This document shows positions 1-6,236 of a stretch of DNA of 6,236 nucleotides, piece after piece (position 1 is the first letter of the stretch; every line of letters begins with the position of its first letter). Under the pieces are notes generated by a model. The model did no database searches and had not been told where the DNA came from. It saw only the letters and a list, made by a program, of their open reading frames with translations. A program made the translations under genes and the position numbers. The DNA lies in the IMG/VR virus record IMGVR_UViG_3300045988_008288, positions 1 through 6,236 of that record; one strand, 5' to 3'. This stretch comes from a virus.

Positions 1-55
1 AAATGTCCAAAACAGCAACATCACCAAATTGAGAGTTCGGGAGAACACCCATCAA
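1..55. repeat. Terminal direct repeat, copy 1 (circular-assembly overlap)
   Basis: Bases 1-55 (aaatgtccaaaacagcaacatcaccaaattgagagttcgggagaacacccatcaa) are identical base for base to 6182-6236. Confidence 0.97.
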
Positions 56-871
56 CATATCCTTGTTCCAATTACAATACTTGAGGTCAAACATTGTATC
101 AGATTTCCAGTAATCGGTATTATAATCCGGTAAAACAGGAATCAGAGAAGGAGAAACTCCGTTATAATAATCCACATTATAGGAAGAAGGGTTAGCTTTT
201 TCCCATTGGGACCAACGGAAAAAGTCTTGATAAATCTTCTGATAAGCCAAAAGAGGGAAAATATTTACATAACTATTTTGAATATACCGCTGGGTATAAC
301 CTCTTGGGTCATCATCATGTTTTAAAGAAGTAGACCACCAACGGTTATTCTTAGAAGGAGGAGTTTGGAGAAAATTGCCATAACCAAGATAAGACAACAA
401 TTTATAAGCCAAATCAGCACGAAAAAACCCAAACATATTCTTTAAAGAAGAAAGACCGCCAGGAGACCAACTATCAGAATTCAAACGACTCAAACAACCT
501 GACATAATAGACAAGGTGAAAGAAGGCAAATAATTACCCAAAGACAAATTCTGAGTCAAAGACAAAGCTTGAATCTGATTGATGTCCTGCATTCGAGTTA
601 ACACAGAAGGAGCAGATTTCCAAAGAAGGCGCAAGGGCACAGCATAGAAATCAAAATATTCACGCAACCGGGTATAAGCAGAAGTTTCAACGGGCTGAGT
701 ACGGGTAAAGTATTCAACGTTGAACTTATACTTATCACCAGGCATGGAAATATCCCAGTAAACCGGGAGAAGCTCACCAACTTTCGCAGTAAATGCATTT
801 TTACGTCCAATATCAAATCCAGAACGGTGAGGATGATTCTGAATATTGGACATTCCAGTGTAAGAAGCCAT
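1..871 (-). CDS. Major capsid protein (Microviridae VP1/F), N-terminal 290 codons. The ORF runs off the window start and continues across the circular junction into 6181..5202.
   Basis: Absent from the supplied ORF track because it has no stop inside the window. I read the minus-strand frame with codon tops at 871, 868, ... 4. ATG is at 871..869 and there is no in-frame stop (no TTA/CTA/TCA among plus-strand triplets starting at 2, 5, ... 869). Translation begins MASYTGMSNIQNHPHRSGFDIGRKNAFTAKVGELLPVYWDISMPGDKYKFNVEYFTRTQPVETSAYTRLREYFDFYAVPLRLLWK. This is the typical microvirus capsid N-terminus (RSxFD, GxLxP, PGD, FxAVPxRxxW). The frame is continuous with ORF 5202..6236 through the 55-nt overlap. 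Confidence 0.93.
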   Translation of the reverse strand, partial: MASYTGMSNIQNHPHRSGFDIGRKNAFTAKVGELLPVYWDISMPGDKYKFNVEYFTRTQPVETSAYTRLREYFDFYAVPLRLLWKSAPSVLTRMQDINQIQALSLTQNLSLGNYLPSFTLSIMSGCLSRLNSDSWSPGGLSSLKNMFGFFRADLAYKLLSYLGYGNFLQTPPSKNNRWWSTSLKHDDDPRGYTQRYIQNSYVNIFPLLAYQKIYQDFFRWSQWEKANPSSYNVDYYNGVSPSLIPVLPDYNTDYWKSDTMFDLKYCNWNKDMLMGVLPNSQFGDVAVLDI

Positions 872-888
872 AATTAAAAAATTGAAAA

Positions 889-2601
889 TTAAACAATTAC
901 AGGAACATCCTGGAAAGAGAAAATACCAGACAAATCATTAATCCTCTTGTGCTTAACCTTATCCCTACATTTCATCAATGAAGCGGCAGCCAAACGACGA
1001 ACAAGAGGTAATTCATGGTAAGGTTTTTCCTTATTATCAGGAAGCCTATTATAACGGAAGGAATAGTTACGAAGCTCAAAATCGACCAAATCCTTATCAT
1101 TGGAATCCTCCAAAGTCTGATAAAAATCTACAAGACGATTATATTCATAACGATTCCAAAAATTAACTATTTTCTCAGAGATTATTCGCAAAAACCTCTC
1201 TCGGCAAAAGAGGTCTCCTCCAGGAGTGCCGCTGGACCAGAAGAATTCTGAGCATCCATCTGTTGAATATGTTCGAATAAACTTCGAAATTCCGAGGAAA
1301 AAACGGTAGAGACGGGACGTACGATGAACAGGGTCCAAATCAACACCATCGTACAAACGACATTCAGAAAGAATGAGAACATCACTATACGGTAAATTAC
1401 CTTTAGGCGAAAAAACATTTCGTTCATCATTTCTTTTTCCATAACTATCTACATAATTTAAATACTGTTTACAAAAAGATAATATACTTTGCTTAGAAAG
1501 TACATTAAAAGGATCACATCCTATATCAGCACATCCGCTACGAATGACTCGTCCGGGCGCTGTGAACGCAGCAGATAATAACTGGTAAATACTCGATGGA
1601 GATTTACGAATAGCGTCCGAAAATCGGGGGAATAGTCGAAGGAGATACGGCCATGTAGGTTTAATTGTGCGAAAATATCCATCGCGCTCAACGCGGACTC
1701 CATTAAGGCACTTATCGGCAACTTCGTCAATTTCGGCAACTCGTACCTTTCGAGGAAAGAGATTTGACTCTGTAAATCCAATGGAATGGAAGGATTTAGG
1801 TCGCACCACTTTTGGCATCTGAGTATAAAAGTCGGGTAAAGCGACAAAACTGTTAACATACGACGCAACATACGGAGCTGCGAATCCTCTCGACAGTGAC
1901 GCATCACAACGTCCGTAAGACCAAGCCTTAGATACATTTTCAAGAACAGTTTGCGAGAATCGTTCGGAATTGGAAAACAATAACAAATGCCAATGCGGGC
2001 GGAAACTGGTAGGGCCGTATTCTGATACAGCGTAGTAACGTAATTTTTCATCCGGGTAATAACTTCTTAAACGTTTCAAAAACAAATCAAGATCACGATT
2101 ACAAACATAAGGAATCCTATTGGGAACATTATGGTTAATCTTTCCAAGAATAGACAAAAGCTCCTTAGGTTTCATACCATAAGTAAACCGAATTTCAGGG
2201 TCCTTAAAAGTACGTTCGACGGTAGAGTTTTTTAACCTAACAGAAGCGGAACGAGGAACGCTACGAAAACCAAACAAATAAGTGTTAGGGTCACCAGCGT
2301 CCAAGTCATTGATATCGGGAACGCAGGGTACATCCGCAATATCATCCGTACAAGCTTCAATAGTCGAAACCTCCAAAGTAGGAAGGAAACAAGGAGCATA
2401 AGTAAGAGTAACAAAATAAACATAACGGAATTGAGCAGAATAAGTAGTAAGCAGGTTTGTTTGAATCCCGGAACGACGAAGAATACAAGAAGGGCAAGAG
2501 CCACAGGAAACGACAACAGGCTCATGTGTATACTTGTTGACAACCGTACGAGGATGCTGACAACGAGTCACTAACTTATTCTGCAATTCCTTGGTAATCA
2601 T
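889..2601 (-). CDS. Replication initiation protein (HUH rolling-circle endonuclease; Microviridae VP4 / phiX174 A-like), 570 aa
   Basis: ATG at 2601..2599 and TAA at 891..889. Motif I is FVTLTY (aa 63-68). The HUH motif is HWHLLLF (aa 203-209, nt 1995..1975). The double-tyrosine motif YVASYVN (Y244 at 1872..1870, Y248 at 1860..1858) parallels the phiX174 A-protein YVAKYVNK active site. The N-terminal Cys cluster SCGSCPSC (aa 32-39) resembles what I recall in microvirus VP4 proteins. The start overlaps the upstream peptidase stop (ATGA). Confidence 0.93.
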   Translation of the reverse strand: MITKELQNKLVTRCQHPRTVVNKYTHEPVVVSCGSCPSCILRRSGIQTNLLTTYSAQFRYVYFVTLTYAPCFLPTLEVSTIEACTDDIADVPCVPDINDLDAGDPNTYLFGFRSVPRSASVRLKNSTVERTFKDPEIRFTYGMKPKELLSILGKINHNVPNRIPYVCNRDLDLFLKRLRSYYPDEKLRYYAVSEYGPTSFRPHWHLLLFSNSERFSQTVLENVSKAWSYGRCDASLSRGFAAPYVASYVNSFVALPDFYTQMPKVVRPKSFHSIGFTESNLFPRKVRVAEIDEVADKCLNGVRVERDGYFRTIKPTWPYLLRLFPRFSDAIRKSPSSIYQLLSAAFTAPGRVIRSGCADIGCDPFNVLSKQSILSFCKQYLNYVDSYGKRNDERNVFSPKGNLPYSDVLILSECRLYDGVDLDPVHRTSRLYRFFLGISKFIRTYSTDGCSEFFWSSGTPGGDLFCRERFLRIISEKIVNFWNRYEYNRLVDFYQTLEDSNDKDLVDFELRNYSFRYNRLPDNKEKPYHELPLVRRLAAASLMKCRDKVKHKRINDLSGIFSFQDVPVIV

Positions 2602-2906
2602 TTTCTATCAGTAAAATTAAGTTTCATTTGACGGGGCTTACGACCACGAGCAAAAGAAACGTGAATAAACGTACGATATATTATAAGTTGGTCAAACTCA
2701 AAGGGAGAATCTTCAACTATCGAGGAGAAAACACCAATCGGAAAATCAATAGGCGCCAAGTCAATGGCGTCTCCAGTCAGATGCTGAGAAGTGCTAGAAC
2801 CATTACACGCATTATTCTGCGCTACAGTACGAAGAGCAGAAGTAACAGAAAAATGGATGTTCCGACGGAGAAGCCATTCAATAAATTTCATTAATTCAGG
2901 ATTCAT
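2598..2906 (-). CDS. M15-type zinc peptidase (peptidoglycan D,D-/L,D-peptidase fold), probable endolysin, 102 aa
   Basis: ATG at 2906..2904 and TGA at 2600..2598. Residues 40-49, SQHLTGDAID, fit the SxHxxGxAxD signature exactly. With FIHVSF this gives the H-D-H zinc triad: H42 (2783..2781), D49 (2762..2760), H82 (2663..2661). This triad is characteristic of the M15 family (VanY / Peptidase_M15_3 / phage L-Ala-D-Glu peptidases). No signal peptide is evident. Confidence 0.85.
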   Translation of the reverse strand: MNPELMKFIEWLLRRNIHFSVTSALRTVAQNNACNGSSTSQHLTGDAIDLAPIDFPIGVFSSIVEDSPFEFDQLIIYRTFIHVSFARGRKPRQMKLNFTDRK

Positions 2907-2909
2907 GAC

Positions 2910-3002
2910 TTACGAAAAAATTTGGGCAATAGACGTAAGAAGACTGACAGCAGCTGCAATAATAGCAGACCAGATTTTAGATTTAGTTTCACTTTTCATC
3001 AT
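2910..3002 (-). CDS. Hypothetical 30-aa single-pass membrane peptide (holin-like candidate)
   Basis: Below the ORF-track size cut-off, so I translated it by hand. ATG-ATG at 3002..2997 and TAA at 2912..2910 give MMKSETKSKIWSAIIAAAVSLLTSIAQIFS. It has a charged N-terminus followed by one hydrophobic helix of about 20 aa. Its stop lies 3 nt before the peptidase ATG and its start overlaps the end of the 58-aa ORF by 14 nt (operon-like packing). There is no homology evidence. Confidence 0.35.
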   Translation of the reverse strand: MMKSETKSKIWSAIIAAAVSLLTSIAQIFS

Positions 3003-3165
3003 CAACACCATACTTAAAAGTTGAACAAATAGATACAATTAGCAAACAATCCGGAGTAAGAGCCGAAGAAATAAAATCAGCAATCTGATCAGCAGGAACA
3101 AAAACACACTCATTCTTACCGGGATTCTCCTTAGATTGAATCGAACACAAATAACAATTTTCCAT
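2989..3165 (-). CDS. Hypothetical 58-aa acidic, Cys-containing protein
   Basis: Hand translation with ATG at 3165..3163 and TGA at 2991..2989: MENCYLCSIQSKENPGKNECVFVPADQIADFISSALTPDCLLIVSICSTFKYGVDDEK. It has 9 D/E against 4 K and five Cys, including an N-terminal CxxC. It is the first ORF downstream of the candidate promoter and sits on the same strand as all real genes. I recognise no family. Confidence 0.35.
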   Translation of the reverse strand: MENCYLCSIQSKENPGKNECVFVPADQIADFISSALTPDCLLIVSICSTFKYGVDDEK

Positions 3166-3220
3166 ACACTTAACAAATTTTAATTATACATTAGTTATGC
3201 CTTGTTTTTCAAGGGCGGAG

Positions 3221-3253
3221 CAAAGATAAAAAAAAAGTCTTGAAAAGAGCAAA
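3221..3253 (-). promoter_or_regulatory. Candidate Bacteroides-type promoter (-33 TTTG / -7 TAnnTTTG)
   Basis: On the minus strand, TTTG lies at 3253..3250. A 21-nt spacer (3249..3229) follows, then TATCTTTG at 3228..3221. The second element matches TAnnTTTG exactly. The match sits in an AT-rich tract about 55 nt upstream of the ORF58 ATG. A run of nine T (3236..3228) occupies the end of the spacer and the first T of the -7 box. Confidence 0.35.
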
Positions 3254-3311
3254 TAAACACACATATTTTTTATACTTATTAATAAAAAGCTATATGGGTG
3301 GCAGGCTGGTC

Positions 3312-3387
3312 TGTGAGTTTGCGTATATAAGACAAGAGGAGACTGAAAGCGATGAGGTAAATCGCTTTCCTTCCAGGCAAACTCATG
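3312..3387. other. Compound nested hairpin (two perfect 9-bp stems)
   Basis: The outer stem pairs TGAGTTTGC (3314-3322) with GCAAACTCA (3377-3385). The inner stem pairs GAAAGCGAT (3345-3353) with ATCGCTTTC (3361-3369), closing a 7-nt loop GAGGTAA. A possible extra helix pairs GGAG (3338-3341) with CTTCC (3370-3374). In plus-sense RNA, G-U pairs 3313-3386 and 3312-3387 would extend the outer stem. Confidence 0.6.
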
Positions 3388-3454
3388 TAGGCTTCGCCAA
3401 TTTATATTTTAGGTGTTTAGCAGCGACGGAAGAAAAAAAGATTAGAGGAAGACT

Positions 3455-3478
3455 GCTTACGCGTTGCAAGCGTCAAGC
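3455..3478. other. Hairpin with a single-nucleotide bulge
   Basis: GCTT-ACGC (3455-3462) pairs with GCGT-(C bulge at 3474)-AAGC (3470-3478) around the loop GTTGCAA. That gives 8 bp in total. The element contains the palindrome ACGCGT. Confidence 0.4.
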
Positions 3479-3498
3479 TTGTAGGAAGGCATTACTAT

Positions 3499-3568
3499 AG
3501 CCTACGGCTCTGATTTCAGTCCTAACGTCCCGAAATTCAGTAGGTGTATAACCACGCTACGCGCGGTT
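3499..3568. other. Three adjacent hairpins, two with identical C-TAC-G apices
   Basis: (a) 3499-3509: AGCC / TAC / GGCT. (b) 3510-3540: CTGATTTC pairs with GAAA(T)TCAG, 8 bp with a T3536 bulge and a 14-nt loop. (c) 3550-3568: AACCaCGC / TAC / GCGcGGTT, 7 bp with one mismatch. Confidence 0.45.
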
Positions 3569-3587
3569 GCCAGAAGTTACTCCAAGC

Positions 3588-3621
3588 AATAAAACCCGAC
3601 GCGTATCACTACGAGCCGGGC
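3588..3621 (-). terminator. Intrinsic (rho-independent) terminator after the VP2 gene
   Basis: The minus-strand RNA reads 5'-GCCCGGC-U-CGUA-GUGA-UACG-C-GUCGGGU-3' (3621..3594). This makes 11 pairs, two of them G-U (3621/3594 and 3616/3599), with one U-C mismatch and a GNRA-type GUGA tetraloop. With U3594 the downstream run reads UUUUAUU (3594..3588). The stem starts 22 nt after the VP2 TAG-TAA double stop. The G-U pairs exist only in the minus sense, which supports the strand assignment. Confidence 0.6.
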
Positions 3622-3643
3622 AAAACATGACAAACAAAAGTTA

Positions 3644-4705
3644 CTACCAAGGCAAGAAGTTACCTATAGTGTTACCGATAGAAGTACCATAAGATACAGC
3701 CTTATCAGCATCATAATACTTATATTTCTTACCTTCATTACGAGAGCGATACCAATCCTCAATACTACGAGAACGAGCACGCTCACGATTGAATTTAGCC
3801 GCTTCGAGCTCAAATTCAGCATTAGAATGATTTGAAGCATTGGAAGCTCGAATCAAAGAATCGGCAGTGGATTCAGCAACCTTATTGCTGATTTTCTGAC
3901 CTTTGGCACGGGCATAAGTCAACACCTCATCAGCAAGAACTTTCTTGGCCTGATTATAATTCAAATGTCCATGAGACATCTGATTATAATACTCAGAGGC
4001 CTTAACATTCAAATCAGCCTGCTGCTGCTGGTCAAGATATTTGTTAAGAACAGTCTTAGCTTCAGCATCAAGCAACTGGGAAGTACCTTGAGCCTGCAAA
4101 AGACGACCTGCAAAAGCCATATTATCAAATTCCTGCATTTCCTTGGAATAACCAAGCTGAGCACGAGCCAAACCAGTAGCTTTCAGATACTCACGGGTTT
4201 CTTTCGTCATCTTGGACCAATCAACATTAGAAAGAGACTGCATGGCCTGGGCATCCGCAAGGTTTTTCTGTCCTTGTAACTGAGAGACCTGGGCTTGCTG
4301 AACCTGAGACTGGAATACAGAACCTATAGCCTGCTGGACACCGGAATAATCAGCCTGGAAAGGCTGCATAACAGCAGAACCGGCAGAAGAGGCAGAAGCA
4401 CCAGAACCAACAGACTGTGCAGTTCCAGCAGAACCACCGTTCATCATAAGATAAGGATTTAAACCAGCTTCTTCGAGGCGTTGACGTTGCGCGGAGGCAG
4501 TATTATACTCGTTCTCCTTATTCCACATATTTTCCTGGAAATCGCGCTGCTGCATAGCCATACGCTCGTTAAACTGGTTATTCATTTGATTTATCTTATA
4601 GTTCATCTGGTTGGTTTCCCTGACATTTTGTCTATTCTGTGAATTTTGAATTGCAGAAGAGCCAATGCCAAGGAGACCACCAGAGATTGAACCGAGAAGA
4701 CCCAT
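3644..4705 (-). CDS. DNA pilot / minor capsid protein (Microviridae VP2 / phiX H-like), 353 aa
   Basis: ATG at 4705..4703 and TAG at 3646..3644, followed in frame by TAA. The N-terminus is a Gly-rich hydrophobic segment, MGLLGSISGGLLGIGSSAI. The body is long and Q/N/A-rich, coiled-coil-like. The segment RQRLEEAGLNPYLMM contains AGLNP, which I recognise as a recurrent signature of microvirus VP2 proteins. The start overlaps the upstream ORF stop (TAATG). Confidence 0.85.
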   Translation of the reverse strand: MGLLGSISGGLLGIGSSAIQNSQNRQNVRETNQMNYKINQMNNQFNERMAMQQRDFQENMWNKENEYNTASAQRQRLEEAGLNPYLMMNGGSAGTAQSVGSGASASSAGSAVMQPFQADYSGVQQAIGSVFQSQVQQAQVSQLQGQKNLADAQAMQSLSNVDWSKMTKETREYLKATGLARAQLGYSKEMQEFDNMAFAGRLLQAQGTSQLLDAEAKTVLNKYLDQQQQADLNVKASEYYNQMSHGHLNYNQAKKVLADEVLTYARAKGQKISNKVAESTADSLIRASNASNHSNAEFELEAAKFNRERARSRSIEDWYRSRNEGKKYKYYDADKAVSYGTSIGNTIGNFLPW

Positions 4706-5187
4706 TACTCAGAGGAAGCAGATTCAGCGGAAGCAGCAGCCGCTTTTTCTGCTTCTTGTCTAGCATTTTCAACATCAATCAATTCTTGAGCCCGGGACTC
4801 AAGATTTTCAGCATAAGCCGACAACTCTTTAGACCAAGCAATAATTTCAGAGGGAGCTTGAACATGCCGGGAGCGAACCGTTGCCAAAAGGTCATCATCA
4901 GACATGTTATCCATAATCTGCTGAATCTGAGAAGCAGACTGTTTACTTTGACCAAACTTAGAAGCAATAGCAAGACCAGCACGGGAAGTCAAGTCCTTGG
5001 TGTGAAGAATCAAACGAACATCAGAGGTATAGCGAACCGGACGAGTTTCATCAGTATCATCAACCTCTACACGAAGTTCTTCAGTACAATCAAACTCAGG
5101 AGCAACTGCAAAAGCATCAGGCTCAACATTAGGAGTAAGTCCAGAACCTTGTTCCAGACATTCCAAAGAATTAAATTTTCCTATCAT
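4705..5187 (-). CDS. Hypothetical acidic protein, possible internal scaffolding protein (VP3-like), 160 aa from the ATG
   Basis: The ORF track starts this ORF at a TTG (5193). The first ATG is at 5187..5185 (MIGKFNSLE...). TAA is at 4707..4705, overlapping the VP2 ATG by 1 nt. The protein is strongly D/E-rich (EVDDTDE, MSDDD) with an Ala/Glu-rich helical C-terminus. Its position between the capsid and pilot genes and its size and charge are consistent with a scaffold. I recognise no diagnostic motif. Confidence 0.6.
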   Translation of the reverse strand: MIGKFNSLECLEQGSGLTPNVEPDAFAVAPEFDCTEELRVEVDDTDETRPVRYTSDVRLILHTKDLTSRAGLAIASKFGQSKQSASQIQQIMDNMSDDDLLATVRSRHVQAPSEIIAWSKELSAYAENLESRAQELIDVENARQEAEKAAAASAESASSE

Positions 5188-5201
5188 AATCAAAATAAAA
5201 A

Positions 5202-6236
5202 TTAATAAGGTACACCATCACGAGACAAATTACGGGCAACATAACAACCGATATAAGAATTAATCAACAACTGGTCAGTATCCCAAGTAGAATCAGCAGC
5301 AACACCGAAGATAGGATCAAGGACAGAAGGATTAACCTTAAAGAACTTATAGTTCAAGACAACCTTAGTATTCTTGTCAACATCGCCTTCATTATAGCCA
5401 AAGCCAAACCAACCAGAAAGAAGAGATTCAGTAACAGGCGAAACCCAAGACTTAAGAGTAGTGGTAAATGCACCGTTAACAACATCAAGCTTAGTTTTCC
5501 AATTGAAATAACGAGGATTATATCCAGCGTTAAACAAATTAGCAATAGAAGCTCTTGGAGAATTAAGAATCTGTGTCATAGGAAGAACTTCCATACCAAT
5601 ATTATCAAATTCCGGGATAGGAAGGGATTCAGCATCAGTCACAAGAAGTTGACCGTCTTGACCAGTAATCGTATAATCAAGCAAAGGCACGGCATGGTAA
5701 ATACACATAACAACACAATGTTCGTCAGTAGTATAAGTAAATGAACCATTGCCAGCACCGACTCCTTTACCAGCAATAACAGCAACATTATCTTCGGAAG
5801 CAAGGTTATTATTGACAACCTCACTGATATCAAGGTTACGAGAGATACCACCGATATAGGTACACATATTAGAAAGAGCTTGAGGCAAGTTCACACCAAA
5901 ATGTTTGCGTATCTGTTCACGGTAGTCACTATCACCAGACTGACTGATTTCTTTCCAACGCTGAAGAGCTTCGGCCTGACGAAGAGCGAGAACCGTAAAT
6001 TGAGACTGTAAAGTAGACAAATCAACACGAAGAGTTGATGCAAAAGGAACAGTATTAGAGGCAGAGGCTTGCAAAGCAAAGAAAGGAACTGGAGCAGAAT
6101 TAGAAGTAATAGCAGAAGCAACACCAACAGTACTCTTTTTATCATCAGGACCTAAAACAACATTAGAAGCGCCAGAATTAGAAATGTCCAAAACAGCAAC
6201 ATCACCAAATTGAGAGTTCGGGAGAACACCCATCAA
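5202..6236 (-). CDS. Major capsid protein VP1/F, C-terminal part (aa 273-616 of the circularised ORF)
   Basis: The ORF is open to the window end and stops at TAA 5204..5202. The leading 'M' in the track is really Leu (TTG at 6236..6234) inside the protein. Bases 6182-6236 duplicate 1-55 in the same frame. The unique coding length is therefore 871 + 980 = 1851 nt, or 616 aa plus stop. Confidence 0.93.
   Translation of the reverse strand: MMGVLPNSQFGDVAVLDISNSGASNVVLGPDDKKSTVGVASAITSNSAPVPFFALQASASNTVPFASTLRVDLSTLQSQFTVLALRQAEALQRWKEISQSGDSDYREQIRKHFGVNLPQALSNMCTYIGGISRNLDISEVVNNNLASEDNVAVIAGKGVGAGNGSFTYTTDEHCVVMCIYHAVPLLDYTITGQDGQLLVTDAESLPIPEFDNIGMEVLPMTQILNSPRASIANLFNAGYNPRYFNWKTKLDVVNGAFTTTLKSWVSPVTESLLSGWFGFGYNEGDVDKNTKVVLNYKFFKVNPSVLDPIFGVAADSTWDTDQLLINSYIGCYVARNLSRDGVPY
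6182..6236. repeat. Terminal direct repeat, copy 2 (circular-assembly overlap)
   Basis: This is an exact 55/55 match to 1-55. It lies inside the capsid ORF and preserves its reading frame. Confidence 0.97.

What the first reader, a model, noticed from the sequence alone, without database searches (positions are those of the whole stretch)
3166..3643. Unusually large gene-free block (about 8% of the genome) between the pilot gene and the next ORF
Elsewhere in this genome genes abut or overlap (ATGA, TAATG, 3-17 nt gaps). Between the VP2 stop (3644) and the ORF58 ATG (3165) lie about 480 nt with no minus-strand ORF longer than 35 codons. The block has two parts: a GC-richer, hairpin-dense part (about 3300-3625) and an AT-rich part (3166-3300). 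A microvirus is unlikely to carry this much non-coding DNA without selection for it. Candidate functions: a complementary-strand origin (a primosome- or primase-recognition hairpin array like the phiX174 n' site or the G4 origin), the Rep nicking origin, or a structured ncRNA.
Basis: partly seen in the sequence, partly recalled or inferred. Interest (0 to 1): 0.7.

Follow-up and report, generated by a model that had tools for sequence, protein, structure and literature searches.

The report
Microvirus replication-origin and control region
The 478-base gene-free block of this gut (Bacteroides) microvirus is a conserved, hairpin-rich control region that most likely holds a transcription terminator, both replication origins and a promoter, and one of its modules is shared, sometimes inverted, with unrelated microviruses.

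Summary
Window 3166-3643 has no conserved ORF and is by far the largest gap in a circular genome of 6181 nt (7.7%).

The GC-richer part (3290-3625) is as conserved as the genes across about 50 relatives. It folds into seven helices, and 13 pairs show compensatory changes.

I read the block as four parts:
- **H1 (3595-3620 plus T-run):** a terminator-like hairpin after the pilot gene.
- **Module A (3405-3585):** a 43-nt invariant core plus hairpins. It is shared by three microvirus lineages with different Rep proteins. It always lies on the same strand as their putative Rep nick motif, even where that strand is antisense to the genes. It is probably a host-specific complementary-strand origin cassette.
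- **Module B (3308-3398):** CCTCTTG/TCTTATATA exposed inside a conserved stem. It stays nearly identical while Rep diverges to 26% identity, so it is probably the Rep nick origin.
- **AT-rich part (3166-3289):** variable, with a conserved Bacteroides-type -33/-7 promoter. In temperate relatives this part also carries a dif-like attP, which is absent here.

None of these functions has been tested experimentally. As a by-product, a gokushovirus-like lineage appears to nick and package the strand antisense to its genes.

The parts
3588..3620 (-). H1: terminator-like hairpin CCCGGCTCGTA-GTGA-TACGCGTCGGG (3620-3595) followed by TTTTATT, 24 nt after the pilot-gene stop
   Evidence: The sequence is. 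The hairpin has 10 pairs, 5 of them changed on both sides across 50 relatives, and 95% of cells are paired. The consensus scan missed it because of its internal mismatch and length. The terminator role is inferred.
3543..3585 (-). 43-nt core of module A: TTGGAGTAACTTCTGGC + H2 hairpin AACCGCGC-GTA-GCGTGGTT (3568-3550, invariant G.T wobble) + ATACACC
   Evidence: The core is 97.7% identical in the otherwise unrelated Dulem virus 262. It was found in 57 IMG/VR contigs and about 70 metagenome microvirus contigs. Bacterial genomes give only chance-level hits. H2 is invariant in 50 of 50 copies, with a C-G to T-A compensation in class 2, mar40 and mar62.
3499..3540 (-). H3 (CTG-A-ATTTCGG...CTGAAAT-CAG, 3540-3510, invariant G.T) and H4 (AGCC-GTA-GGCT, 3509-3499)
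   Evidence: H3 shows U-A to C-G in 18 of 50 copies. H4 has 2 of 4 pairs changed on both sides. The stems are fully replaced in the L024, L035, mar40 and mar62 variants (CACATTTC/GAAATGTG, TGC/GCA, ATTCAC/GTGAAT).
3405..3498 (-). 3' half of module A: conserved, little supported structure; invariant GCAACGCGTA (3467-3458) and GTCGCTGCTA(A/T)AC end (3427-3414)
   Evidence: Invariant columns are listed. Homology with the class 2 copies ends at ...GCTGCTAWACNCTTAAA. In L024, L059, L035 and L140 this half is replaced or expanded by an alternative domain of about 150 nt.
3308..3398 (-). Module B, candidate Rep (+) origin. It comprises small hairpin GGC-GAA-GCC (3398-3390), long-range helix H5 TGAGTTTGC/GCAAACTCA (3385-3377 / 3322-3314) and hairpin H6 GAAAGCGAT/ATCGCTTTC (3369-3345). 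H5 encloses the unpaired CCTCTTG|TCTTATATA (3339-3324, putative nick after G3333). The conserved CGCAAACTCACAGACC follows (3323-3308).
   Evidence: Module B is the most conserved segment of the genome, at 92.1%. H6 shows G-C to U-A in 19 of 50 copies, and the small hairpin has 2 of 3 pairs compensated. The motif is kept in Dulem 237/254, mar62 and a porcine microvirus whose Rep is only 26-54% identical. In those genomes H5 and H6 have different sequences but the same pairing. It resembles the phiX174 origin CAACTTG|ATATTAAT. Nicking was not tested.
3279..3386 (-). 35-codon ORF (ATG 3386) inside module B: not a gene
   Evidence: Among 50 relatives, 3 lose the ATG, about 16 have in-frame stops at codons 19-26 and 12 carry frameshifting indels.
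3221..3253 (-). Bacteroides-type promoter: TTTG (3253-3250), 21-nt spacer, TATCTTTG (3228-3221), upstream of ORF58, the M15 peptidase and Rep
   Evidence: Both boxes are 70-99% conserved in the clade, although the surrounding AT-rich DNA is not. TAnnTTTG is documented as the Bacteroides -7 consensus (PMC4747536). The -33 TTTG box and its 19-21 nt spacing are from my memory. The host is inferred from prophages.
3183..3212 (-). sigma-70-like TTGAAA-18-TATAAT, private to this genome
   Evidence: This is the best consensus match in the window. The clade consensus reads TTTAAA / TCTAAT, and the window has a private 12-nt insertion (3193-3204) between the two boxes. It is probably irrelevant in a Bacteroides host.
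3166..3289 (-). Variable AT-rich part: promoter and 5' leader. In temperate relatives the equivalent place holds the dif-like attP.
   Evidence: Only 12 of 49 relatives give a BLAST hit. The dif-like site TATATTAAACATnnTCCTGATATTG lies about 340 nt after the core in Dulem 257, L049 and mar62, and at both prophage junctions of L140. It is absent from the window.

Best explanation
The block is the replication and expression control region of a Bacteroides-infecting (Alpavirinae-like) microvirus. Read on the gene-sense (minus) strand, which here is the strand that is nicked and packaged, it has four parts.

1. **H1.** This hairpin ends the capsid-scaffold-pilot transcript.
2. **Module A.** It folds in the single-stranded viral DNA and recruits host priming machinery to start complementary-strand synthesis, acting as a single-strand origin. 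It depends on the host and not on Rep. This explains why it is a portable cassette shared by microviruses with three different Rep types.
3. **Module B.** This is the Rep origin. A long-range stem and an inner hairpin hold CCTCTTG/TCTTATATA unpaired so that the HUH Rep can nick it, probably after CTTG. The adjacent CGCAAACTCACAGACC would act as the binding site.
4. **AT-rich tail.** It carries the -33/-7 Bacteroides promoter that restarts transcription into ORF58, the M15 peptidase and Rep.

What is shown: conservation, covariation, absence of coding, distribution, co-orientation and host identity. What is inferred: every biochemical role.
For: **Selection and structure**
- The region is 86-92% identical across 49 genomes, equal to or above the genes.
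- Of 53 pairs, 98.5% are paired and 13 are compensated, against 5.1 in shuffles and 0-3 in slid controls.
- Wobbles are G.T on the gene-sense strand and never A.C, so that strand is the one that folds.
- The region is not coding. It has no Rfam or tRNA match.

**Module B tracks Rep**
- The motif of about 30 nt survives where Rep has fallen to 26-29% identity and the rest of the gap is unalignable. H5 and H6 are rebuilt from different sequences there.
- Dulem 247/262, which have another Rep type, instead carry a hairpin whose loop has ACTTGATATTA. This is 11 of 11 identical to the annotated phiX174 origin.

**Module A is independent of Rep**
- It occurs with the window-type Rep, the Dulem 247/262 Rep and a gokushovirus-like 355-aa Rep.
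- A class 2 copy is 88% identical to a clade-1 copy, so exchange has been recent.
- In all three lineages it lies on the strand carrying the putative nick motif.
- In class 2 that strand is antisense to the genes. It is also the T-rich strand (A3 0.44-0.50 against T3 0.08-0.19, the mirror image of the window). It holds the hairpin TATATT-TACTTGATAT-AATATG, whose T.G wobble is on that strand.

**Host and promoter**
- Prophages of near-identical phages sit at a conserved dif-like site in Bacteroides chromosomes, as described for BMV proviruses.
- The TTTG / TAnnTTTG boxes are conserved.

**Literature frame**
- Conserved intergenic hairpins with compensatory changes in other microviruses are assumed to be minus-strand origins.
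Against: - No experiment supports any assigned role.
- Module A has no sequence similarity to known ssi or sso elements or to any plasmid. I could not identify which host factor it would bind. The DnaA-box-like TTATACACC next to H2 is at chance level.
- Single-sequence folding is only modestly better than shuffles (z about -2).
- Most helices of module B and all of H2 are invariant, so they say nothing about structure within the clade.
- The similarity of module B to the phiX origin is limited to CTTG plus an AT-rich tract.
- The window also has CCTTGATATCA inside VP1.
- The co-orientation argument rests on one informative inversion (class 2). It also rests on identifying gokushovirus nick sites by analogy. 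The T-rich strand is a priori about twice as likely to carry the motif (my estimate from base composition).
- Sister genomes that lack module A must use something else.
Confidence: 0.55

Rival explanations
1. Module A is an independently transcribed structured non-coding RNA gene, for example a regulatory or anti-defence RNA. It can therefore sit in either orientation relative to the phage genes.
For: - The invariant G.U wobbles in H2 and H3 and the many compensatory changes are typical of functional RNAs.
- Its orientation is free relative to the genes.
- It moves between unrelated phages.
Against: - There is no Rfam family match even at E<=10.
- I found no conserved Bacteroides-type promoter upstream or terminator downstream in either class (read by eye).
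- In clade 1 it lies after a terminator-like hairpin and before the next promoter.
- Its orientation is not free. It follows the putative nick strand and the T-rich strand in all three lineages.
Confidence: 0.17
2. Module A acts on the packaged single strand but is not a priming site. It could be, for example, a packaging or condensation signal, a site bound by a phage or host ssDNA-binding protein, or a decoy against host defence.
For: The evidence is the same strand-specific folding and co-orientation with the nick strand. The sister group and Dulem 237 lack it, so it may be dispensable or replaceable.
Against: Microvirus packaging is coupled to Rep-driven synthesis, and no packaging site is known (established knowledge for phiX174). 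Every ssDNA replicon needs a complementary-strand origin, and no other candidate is seen in this genome. Replaceable alternative cassettes are exactly what is seen for the single-strand origins of rolling-circle plasmids (established knowledge).
Confidence: 0.1
3. The roles are assigned wrongly. The Rep nick site lies elsewhere (for example AACCTTG/ATATCA inside VP1 at about 5834, or in module A). Module B would then be the complementary-strand origin or another cis element.
For: - The VP1 site matches the phiX CTTGATAT 8-mer and sits in a weak hairpin.
- The phiX174 origin itself lies inside a gene.
- The match of module B to phiX is weak.
Against: - The VP1 site shows ordinary codon-periodic conservation. 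It is absent from Dulem 237/254, mar62 and the porcine virus, all of which keep the module B motif.
- Module B follows the Rep lineage, whereas module A does not.
Confidence: 0.1
4. The conserved block is a selfish, non-autonomous mobile element (MITE-like or IS200/IS605-derived) carried as a passenger, with no function for the phage.
For: Module A appears in unrelated microviruses, in both orientations relative to the genes, with near-identical copies across clades.
Against: - There are no terminal repeats or target duplications.
- It is never found outside microviruses. Bacterial genomes give chance-level hits and plasmids give none.
- There is always one copy, at a fixed place per lineage.
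- It shows strong purifying selection with compensatory changes.
Confidence: 0.04
5. The block hides a small protein-coding gene, on either strand or in an alternative genetic code.
For: A conserved ATG (3386) opens a 35-codon ORF, and an 86-aa TTG ORF lies on the plus strand. GenBank annotates a 67-aa hypothetical protein here in Dulem 257.
Against: - Start loss, in-frame stops and frameshifting indels occur in about 30 of 50 relatives.
- All three stop codons occur in every frame.
- There is no PHROG hit.
- ORF positions are inconsistent among relatives.
Confidence: 0.02

Closest known systems
Filamentous phage f1/M13 intergenic region (about 500 nt: terminator upstream, hairpins for the minus-strand origin, then the plus-strand nick origin, then a promoter)
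   Same: It is one large hairpin-rich non-coding block in an otherwise packed ssDNA phage genome. It combines a host-dependent complementary-strand origin, the Rep nick origin and transcription signals, all read on the packaged strand.
   Different: There is no sequence similarity. The phage family (Microviridae) and host (Bacteroides) are different. No packaging hairpin is expected. The priming enzyme is unknown (RNA polymerase in f1). This comparison rests on my knowledge of f1, not on a test here.
phiX174 / G4 complementary-strand origins (ssi: the PriA n' site; the G4 DnaG site) in the F-G intergenic region
   Same: Both are structured elements on the viral strand of a microvirus and depend on the host only.
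   Different: Module A is longer (about 180 nt, at least 3 hairpins plus an invariant 43-nt core). It has no similarity to those sites. It is shared between microviruses with different Rep proteins. Which host protein it binds is unknown.
Single-strand origins of rolling-circle plasmids (ssoA, ssoU, ssoT, ssoW)
   Same: They are orientation-specific, highly structured, host-specific and independent of Rep. They exist as alternative cassettes that are exchanged between unrelated replicons. Module A shows this same pattern.
   Different: There is no sequence match to any plasmid. The CS-6-like TAGCGT in the H2 loop is not conserved, because the loop base varies.
phiX174 / pC194-type double-strand origin (CAACTTG|ATATTAATAAC...; nick site plus AT-rich spacer plus binding sequence)
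   Same: Module B has an invariant CTTG, an AT-rich variable tract and then an invariant block of about 16 nt. It is exposed in a stem and is conserved with the Rep lineage. Dulem 247/262 and the class 2 lineage carry ACTTGATAT(T)A, identical to phiX.
   Different: In the window only CTTG plus AT-richness is shared. Here the site is intergenic, whereas in phiX174 it lies inside gene A. Rep is 570 aa with an unexplained C-terminal half.
dif-like attP of Bacteroidetes microvirus proviruses (BMV1-7, Alpavirinae; Krupovic and Forterre 2011, PMC3091885)
   Same: Close relatives integrate at a conserved dif-like site of Bacteroides. Their attP lies in the AT-rich part of this same intergenic block.
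   Different: The window genome has no such site, so it is probably strictly lytic or has lost the site.

Membership tests
Single-strand (complementary-strand) origin, ssi/sso | Lies on the displaced or packaged strand and is orientation-specific relative to the nick origin | tested here: met
   Module A is co-oriented with the putative nick motif in all three lineages. This holds in class 2, where both are antisense to the genes. The nick motifs themselves are inferred.
Single-strand (complementary-strand) origin, ssi/sso | Extensive conserved secondary structure in the single strand | tested here: met
   H2, H3 and H4 are 99-100% paired with compensatory changes, and the wobbles are G.T on one strand only.
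Single-strand (complementary-strand) origin, ssi/sso | Independent of Rep and dependent on host factors | tested here: inconclusive
   Module A is shared by three Rep types whose Reps match only in short 24-35%-identical stretches, and all come from gut or Bacteroides-associated contigs. Dependence on host factors cannot be tested here.
Single-strand (complementary-strand) origin, ssi/sso | Primer synthesis starts there, and its loss leads to ssDNA accumulation | not testable with these tools
   This needs in vitro priming or an in vivo ssDNA accumulation assay.
Single-strand (complementary-strand) origin, ssi/sso | Sequence signatures of known types (ssoA RSB / CS-6, PriA n' site, G4 site) | tested here: not met
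   There is no plasmid match. The TAGCGT in the H2 loop is not conserved. The DnaA-box-like 9-mer is at chance level. If module A is a single-strand origin, it is of a new type.
phiX174-type Rep nick origin (dso) | Nick-site consensus CAACTTG|ATATTAAT on the viral strand | tested here: inconclusive
   The window has CCTCTTG|TCTTATATA, sharing CTTG plus an AT-rich tract. Relatives with other Reps have 9-11 nt identical to phiX.
phiX174-type Rep nick origin (dso) | Nick site exposed as single strand in a hairpin-like structure, with an adjacent binding sequence | tested here: met
   The motif lies unpaired between H6 and the 3' strand of H5. H5 and H6 are rebuilt with other sequences in Dulem 237, mar62 and the porcine virus. 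The invariant CGCAAACTCACAGACC follows.
phiX174-type Rep nick origin (dso) | Co-varies with the Rep lineage | tested here: met
   The motif is kept with Reps of 26-54% identity and replaced in the Dulem 247/262 and class 2 Rep lineages.
phiX174-type Rep nick origin (dso) | Cleaved by the cognate Rep | not testable with these tools
   This needs a nicking assay or 5'-end mapping.
Structured non-coding RNA family | Match to a described family | tested here: not met
   cmscan of Rfam 15 at E<=10 finds nothing in 3166-3643. ARAGORN finds nothing.
Structured non-coding RNA family | Own promoter and terminator, with a discrete transcript | tested here: inconclusive
   No conserved promoter or terminator flanks module A in either class, judged by eye. 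Transcripts cannot be tested here.
Intrinsic terminator (H1) | GC-rich hairpin followed directly by a T-run, downstream of a stop codon | tested here: met
   H1 has 10 pairs followed by TTTT(A/G)TT, lies 24 nt after the stop, and has 5 compensated pairs. Termination itself was not tested.
Bacteroides sigma-ABfr promoter | -7 TAnnTTTG and -33 TTTG about 19-21 nt apart | tested here: met
   TTTG lies at 3253-3250, followed by a 21-nt spacer and TATCTTTG at 3228-3221. Both are conserved in the clade. The -7 consensus is documented in PMC4747536. The -33 box and the spacing are from my memory.
dif-like attP (XerC/D-dependent integration) | Site of about 28 bp matching the host dif-like attB | tested here: not met
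   The window has 0 matches at up to 3 mismatches. The site is present in a few relatives and at the prophage junctions.

The most novel reading that the evidence does not exclude
Module A is a portable, Bacteroides-specific complementary-strand origin cassette that always marks the encapsidated strand. In a gokushovirus-like gut lineage of about 37 genomes here (Rep 47-100% identical to class 2), four features all fall on the strand antisense to every gene:
- module A, where present (at least 11 class 2 genomes or contigs; absent from the sister group);
- the phiX/Chp2-like nick hairpin TATATT-TACTTGATAT-AATATG;
- the T.G wobble of that hairpin;
- the third-codon-position T excess.

These phages would therefore nick and package the non-coding strand. 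They would be the first 'negative-sense' Microviridae.
Probability: 0.35. Interest if true: 0.8.

Novelty: new member of a known kind. Interest (0 to 1): 0.58.

Why it matters
- **Origins of gut microviruses.** Neither replication origin of the abundant Bacteroides-infecting (Alpavirinae-like) microviruses has been defined. This block gives concrete, testable candidates for both, with a putative nick position. It also gives the terminator, promoter and attP layout needed to engineer these phages or build ssDNA vectors for Bacteroides.
- **A shared host-directed cassette.** The 43-nt core conserved across unrelated microviruses points to a single host factor that many gut ssDNA phages depend on.
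- **A strand marker for metagenomic genomes.** If the co-orientation rule holds, module A and the nick hairpin identify the packaged strand in metagenomic genomes. They already suggest that one common gut lineage packages the strand antisense to its genes. That would overturn the assumption that all Microviridae are positive-sense.

Tried and rejected
- **Rfam and tRNA.** Rfam cmscan at E<=10 and the tRNA/tmRNA scan found nothing in the block.
- **Hidden gene or alternative code.** All three stop codons occur in every frame. The ATG-3386 ORF is broken in about 30 of 50 relatives.
- **dif-like attP in the window.** Absent, although present in relatives.
- **sigma-70 promoter.** The site at 3212-3183 is private to this genome and not conserved.
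- **DnaA box.** TTATACACC beside H2 is at chance level.
- **ssoA CS-6.** The TAGCGT in the H2 loop has a variable loop base, so it is not conserved.
- **Plasmid homologues.** None.
- **Bacterial homologues of the core.** Four hits, below my rough chance expectation of about 17.
- **RNAalifold's alternative pairings.** These pair the 3' half of H1 with CTTCYGGC or with GCGTA, and add a 4-bp closing helix YGGC/GYCG. They show one-sided changes only, so I did not adopt them.
- **All-against-all covariation scan.** Too noisy to add helices.
- **CCTTGATATCA in VP1 as the origin.** Ordinary coding conservation, and absent in relatives.
- **Apparent VP1 frameshift.** An artefact of joining a window that has a 55-nt terminal repeat.
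- **Literature.** Searches for gokushovirus origins or for the polarity of packaged strands found nothing relevant.
- **phiMH2K.** It has an A-rich coding strand, but I found no clear nick hairpin on either strand.
Full report
**What the window is**

The window is a complete circular microvirus genome with all genes on the minus strand.
- It carries a 55-nt terminal repeat, so the true length is 6181 nt.
- The major capsid gene wraps round the ends (about 590..1 and 6236..5202).
- It is followed by a 162-aa scaffold-like ORF (5193..4705), the DNA pilot gene (4705..3644) and then the gap (3643..3166).
- After the gap come ORF58 (3165..2989), an M15 peptidase (2906..2598), a long 570-aa Rep (2601..889) and ORF72 (816..598).
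- Its closest GenBank relatives are Dulem viruses 236/257 and bajarodmic viruses, at 84-86% identity.

**Observation**

- The only minus-strand ORF in the gap has 35 codons.
- GC is 0.285 in the AT-rich part and 0.44-0.46 in the rest.
- The gap is 7.7% of the genome and far larger than any other gap (the next largest are 82 and 72 nt).
- A large gap after the pilot gene is general in this family: 344-620 nt in Dulem 237, 247 and 254 and in mar62.

**Selection, structure and coding**

- Against 49 complete relatives, window 3290-3404 is 92.1% identical and 3405-3625 is 86.0%. Coding genes range from 72 to 91%. The AT-rich 3166-3289 is found in only 12 of 49 (the per-base profile is).
- A seven-helix structure drawn from the alignment (H1, H2, H3, H4, a small hairpin, H5 and H6; 53 pairs) is 98.5% paired over 50 sequences. 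It has 13 pairs changed on both sides, against 5.1 +/- 1.1 in column shuffles (0 of 500) and 0-3 when the partners are slid.
- Wobble pairs are G.T on the gene-sense strand, so that strand folds.
- Folding of the single sequence alone is only modestly unusual, with z about -2.
- The block is not coding. The one conserved ATG (3386) opens an ORF that loses its start, gains stops or is frameshifted in about 30 of 50 relatives. ORF positions are inconsistent among relatives.
- Rfam and the tRNA scan find nothing.

**Module B (3308-3398): candidate Rep nick origin**

- A motif of about 30 nt, (G)GTCTCCTCTTGTCTTATATACGCAAACTCACA, recurs in many further microviruses.
- In Dulem 237/254, mar62 and a porcine virus, Rep is only 26-54% identical to the window's and the rest of the gap is unalignable. 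Even so, three features persist:
  - the motif itself;
  - a 9-bp hairpin just upstream, with a completely different sequence in each;
  - a long-range helix whose 3' strand is part of the motif (GAGTTTGC/GCAAACTC, AGTTGTG/CACAACT with a compensating indel, CAGTTTTC/GAAAACTG).
- CCTCTTG/TCTTATATA is therefore held unpaired inside a stem. This is the classic presentation of an HUH nick site.
- The layout is an invariant CTTG, an AT-rich variable tract and then an invariant 16-mer. It parallels the phiX174 origin CAACTTG|ATATTAATAACACTATAGACCAC.
- Dulem 247/262 have a different Rep (35% identity over about 80 aa). In the same gap they carry a hairpin whose loop holds ACTTGATATTA, 11 of 11 identical to phiX.
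- A CCTTGATATCA inside the window's VP1 is not conserved beyond coding expectation and is missing in the relatives.

**Module A (3405-3585): candidate complementary-strand origin**

- Its 43-nt core (3543-3585) contains the invariant hairpin AACCGCGC-GTA-GCGTGGTT. The core is 97.7% identical in Dulem 262, a genome otherwise too diverged for megablast.
- The core occurs in 57 IMG/VR contigs and about 70 metagenome microvirus contigs. It never occurs above chance in bacterial genomes or plasmids.
- Module A accompanies three Rep types: the window type, the Dulem 247/262 type and a 355-aa gokushovirus-like type, which I call class 2.
- Exchange between them is recent. A class 2 copy is 88% identical to a clade-1 copy, inside the clade-1 range of 76-92%.
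- A covariance model of module A finds it in those three groups only. It is absent from the class 2 sister group, Dulem 237/254, the porcine virus, Chp2, SpV4 and phiMH2K. It therefore behaves as one of several alternative cassettes, as the single-strand origins of rolling-circle plasmids do.

**The orientation puzzle**

- In class 2 (mar40, mar45, L035, L051 and at least 7 metagenome contigs), module A lies after Rep and is inverted relative to all genes.
- It nevertheless keeps its G.T wobbles in its own sense.
- Three further features lie on that same antisense strand:
  - **T excess.** The window has T3 0.48-0.63 and A3 0.10-0.18. Class 2 has A3 0.44-0.50 and T3 0.08-0.19. In element-sense orientation every genuine contig is T-rich.
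  - **A nick-like hairpin.** A conserved hairpin in the second non-coding gap reads TATTAT-ACTTGAT-ATAATA. In about 30 sister genomes it reads TATATT-TACTTGATAT-AATATG. Its loop is 9 of 9 identical to the phiX origin and 8 of 8 to the loop of the 14-bp Chp2 hairpin.
  - **The wobble of that hairpin.** It is T.G on the antisense strand and would be a C.A mismatch on the sense strand.
- In Chp2, SpV4 and two distant gokushoviruses, the equivalent hairpin is on the gene-sense strand.
- Base composition alone favours the antisense strand only about 2:1 for the 9-mer (my estimate).
- Module A is therefore co-oriented with the putative nick site in all three lineages, whatever the gene orientation. 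This is what a single-strand origin requires, and it is not expected for an mRNA element.
- The same data suggest that the class 2 lineage packages the strand antisense to its genes. I found no report of this. Roux et al. describe even one complementary-strand gene as highly unusual.

**Flanks**

- **H1.** This hairpin (3620-3595, 10 pairs, 5 compensated, followed by TTTTATT) lies 24 nt after the pilot-gene stop and looks like an intrinsic terminator.
- **Promoter.** The AT-rich part is poorly conserved except for TTTG (3253-3250) and TATCTTTG (3228-3221), 21 nt apart. This fits the Bacteroides -33/-7 promoter (TAnnTTTG). The sigma-70-like site is private to this genome.
- **Host.** The host is Bacteroides. 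Two metagenome contigs (L140, L119) carry near-identical phages integrated next to a conserved 377-aa gene. Their junctions lie in this AT-rich part and are flanked by TATATTAAACATnnTCCTGATATTG. The empty site is conserved downstream of that gene in many Bacteroides species, the closest being B. rodentium at 98%. This matches the dif-like integration described for BMV proviruses.
- **No attP in the window.** The window itself lacks the site.

**Verdict**

The block is an f1-like intergenic control region: terminator, single-strand origin, Rep origin and promoter. In temperate relatives it also holds an attP. Conservation, covariation, distribution, co-orientation and host are shown. All biochemical roles are inferred. 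Module A is a new sequence type with no known relative, so this is a new member of a known kind. Its by-product, possible negative-sense microviruses, would be far more surprising if confirmed.

Noticed in passing
window 1-55 and 6182-6236: The two ends are an exact 55-nt direct repeat (an assembly overlap). The genome is circular and 6181 nt long. Joining the ends naively creates a false frameshift in the capsid gene.
   Followed up: yes
window 889-2601 (-), and 1521-2051 (-): Rep is unusually long at 570 aa. Only aa 7-278 match Rep families, and the C-terminal half of about 290 aa has no Pfam or PHROG hit. A 176-aa ORF overlaps Rep in another frame and is retained in all relatives at 79-94% aa by tblastn. 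That conservation cannot be separated from the conservation of Rep itself.
   Followed up: partly
L140 (reverse complement 3915-10445) and L119: Near-identical phages are integrated as prophages in Bacteroides chromosomes at a conserved dif-like site downstream of a 377-aa gene. Only a few free genomes (Dulem 257, L049, mar62) carry the matching attP. The window does not.
   Followed up: yes
L035, L051, L093, L101, L122, L150, L238-L274: A gokushovirus-like gut lineage has a strongly A-rich coding strand (AT skew +0.27 to +0.41; A3 about 0.5). Its phiX/Chp2-like nick hairpin lies on the strand antisense to all genes. This suggests that the non-coding strand is the one nicked and packaged.
   Followed up: partly
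L024, L059, L035, L101, L140 (equivalent to window about 3405-3480): An alternative 'long' form of module A replaces the 3' half with an extra structured domain of about 150 nt (for example GATCCAAGTCCGAAGGAAGAAGGATC). It occurs in both clade 1 and class 2 genomes.
   Followed up: no
window 3644-4705 versus relatives: The pilot protein occurs as two allelic types among otherwise similar genomes, about 93-98% and about 66-72% aa identity to the window. This indicates mosaic recombination.
   Followed up: no
L138 (element-sense, upstream of the core) and L068 4083..3300: Tandem repeats lie next to the origin region. L138 has three copies of TTAACATTAAATTAACATGAATATAAC. The porcine microvirus has runs of CTACGAGCAAT and a (GC)n tract in an intergenic region of about 1.3 kb. 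They may be iterons or binding sites.
   Followed up: no
window 3543-3551 (-): TTATACACC lies directly 3' of the invariant hairpin H2. It matches the DnaA-box consensus TTATNCACA at 8 of 9 positions, and its only variable base is the degenerate one. Such matches are at chance frequency in the genome (11 observed against 6.9 expected).
   Followed up: yes
window 3193-3204 (-): A private 12-nt insertion relative to the clade consensus creates the spacing for a sigma-70-like TTGAAA-18-TATAAT that relatives lack.
   Followed up: partly
L241 5097-5826: The class 2 sister group has a non-coding stretch of about 730 nt after Rep that lacks module A. Its content was not examined.
   Followed up: no
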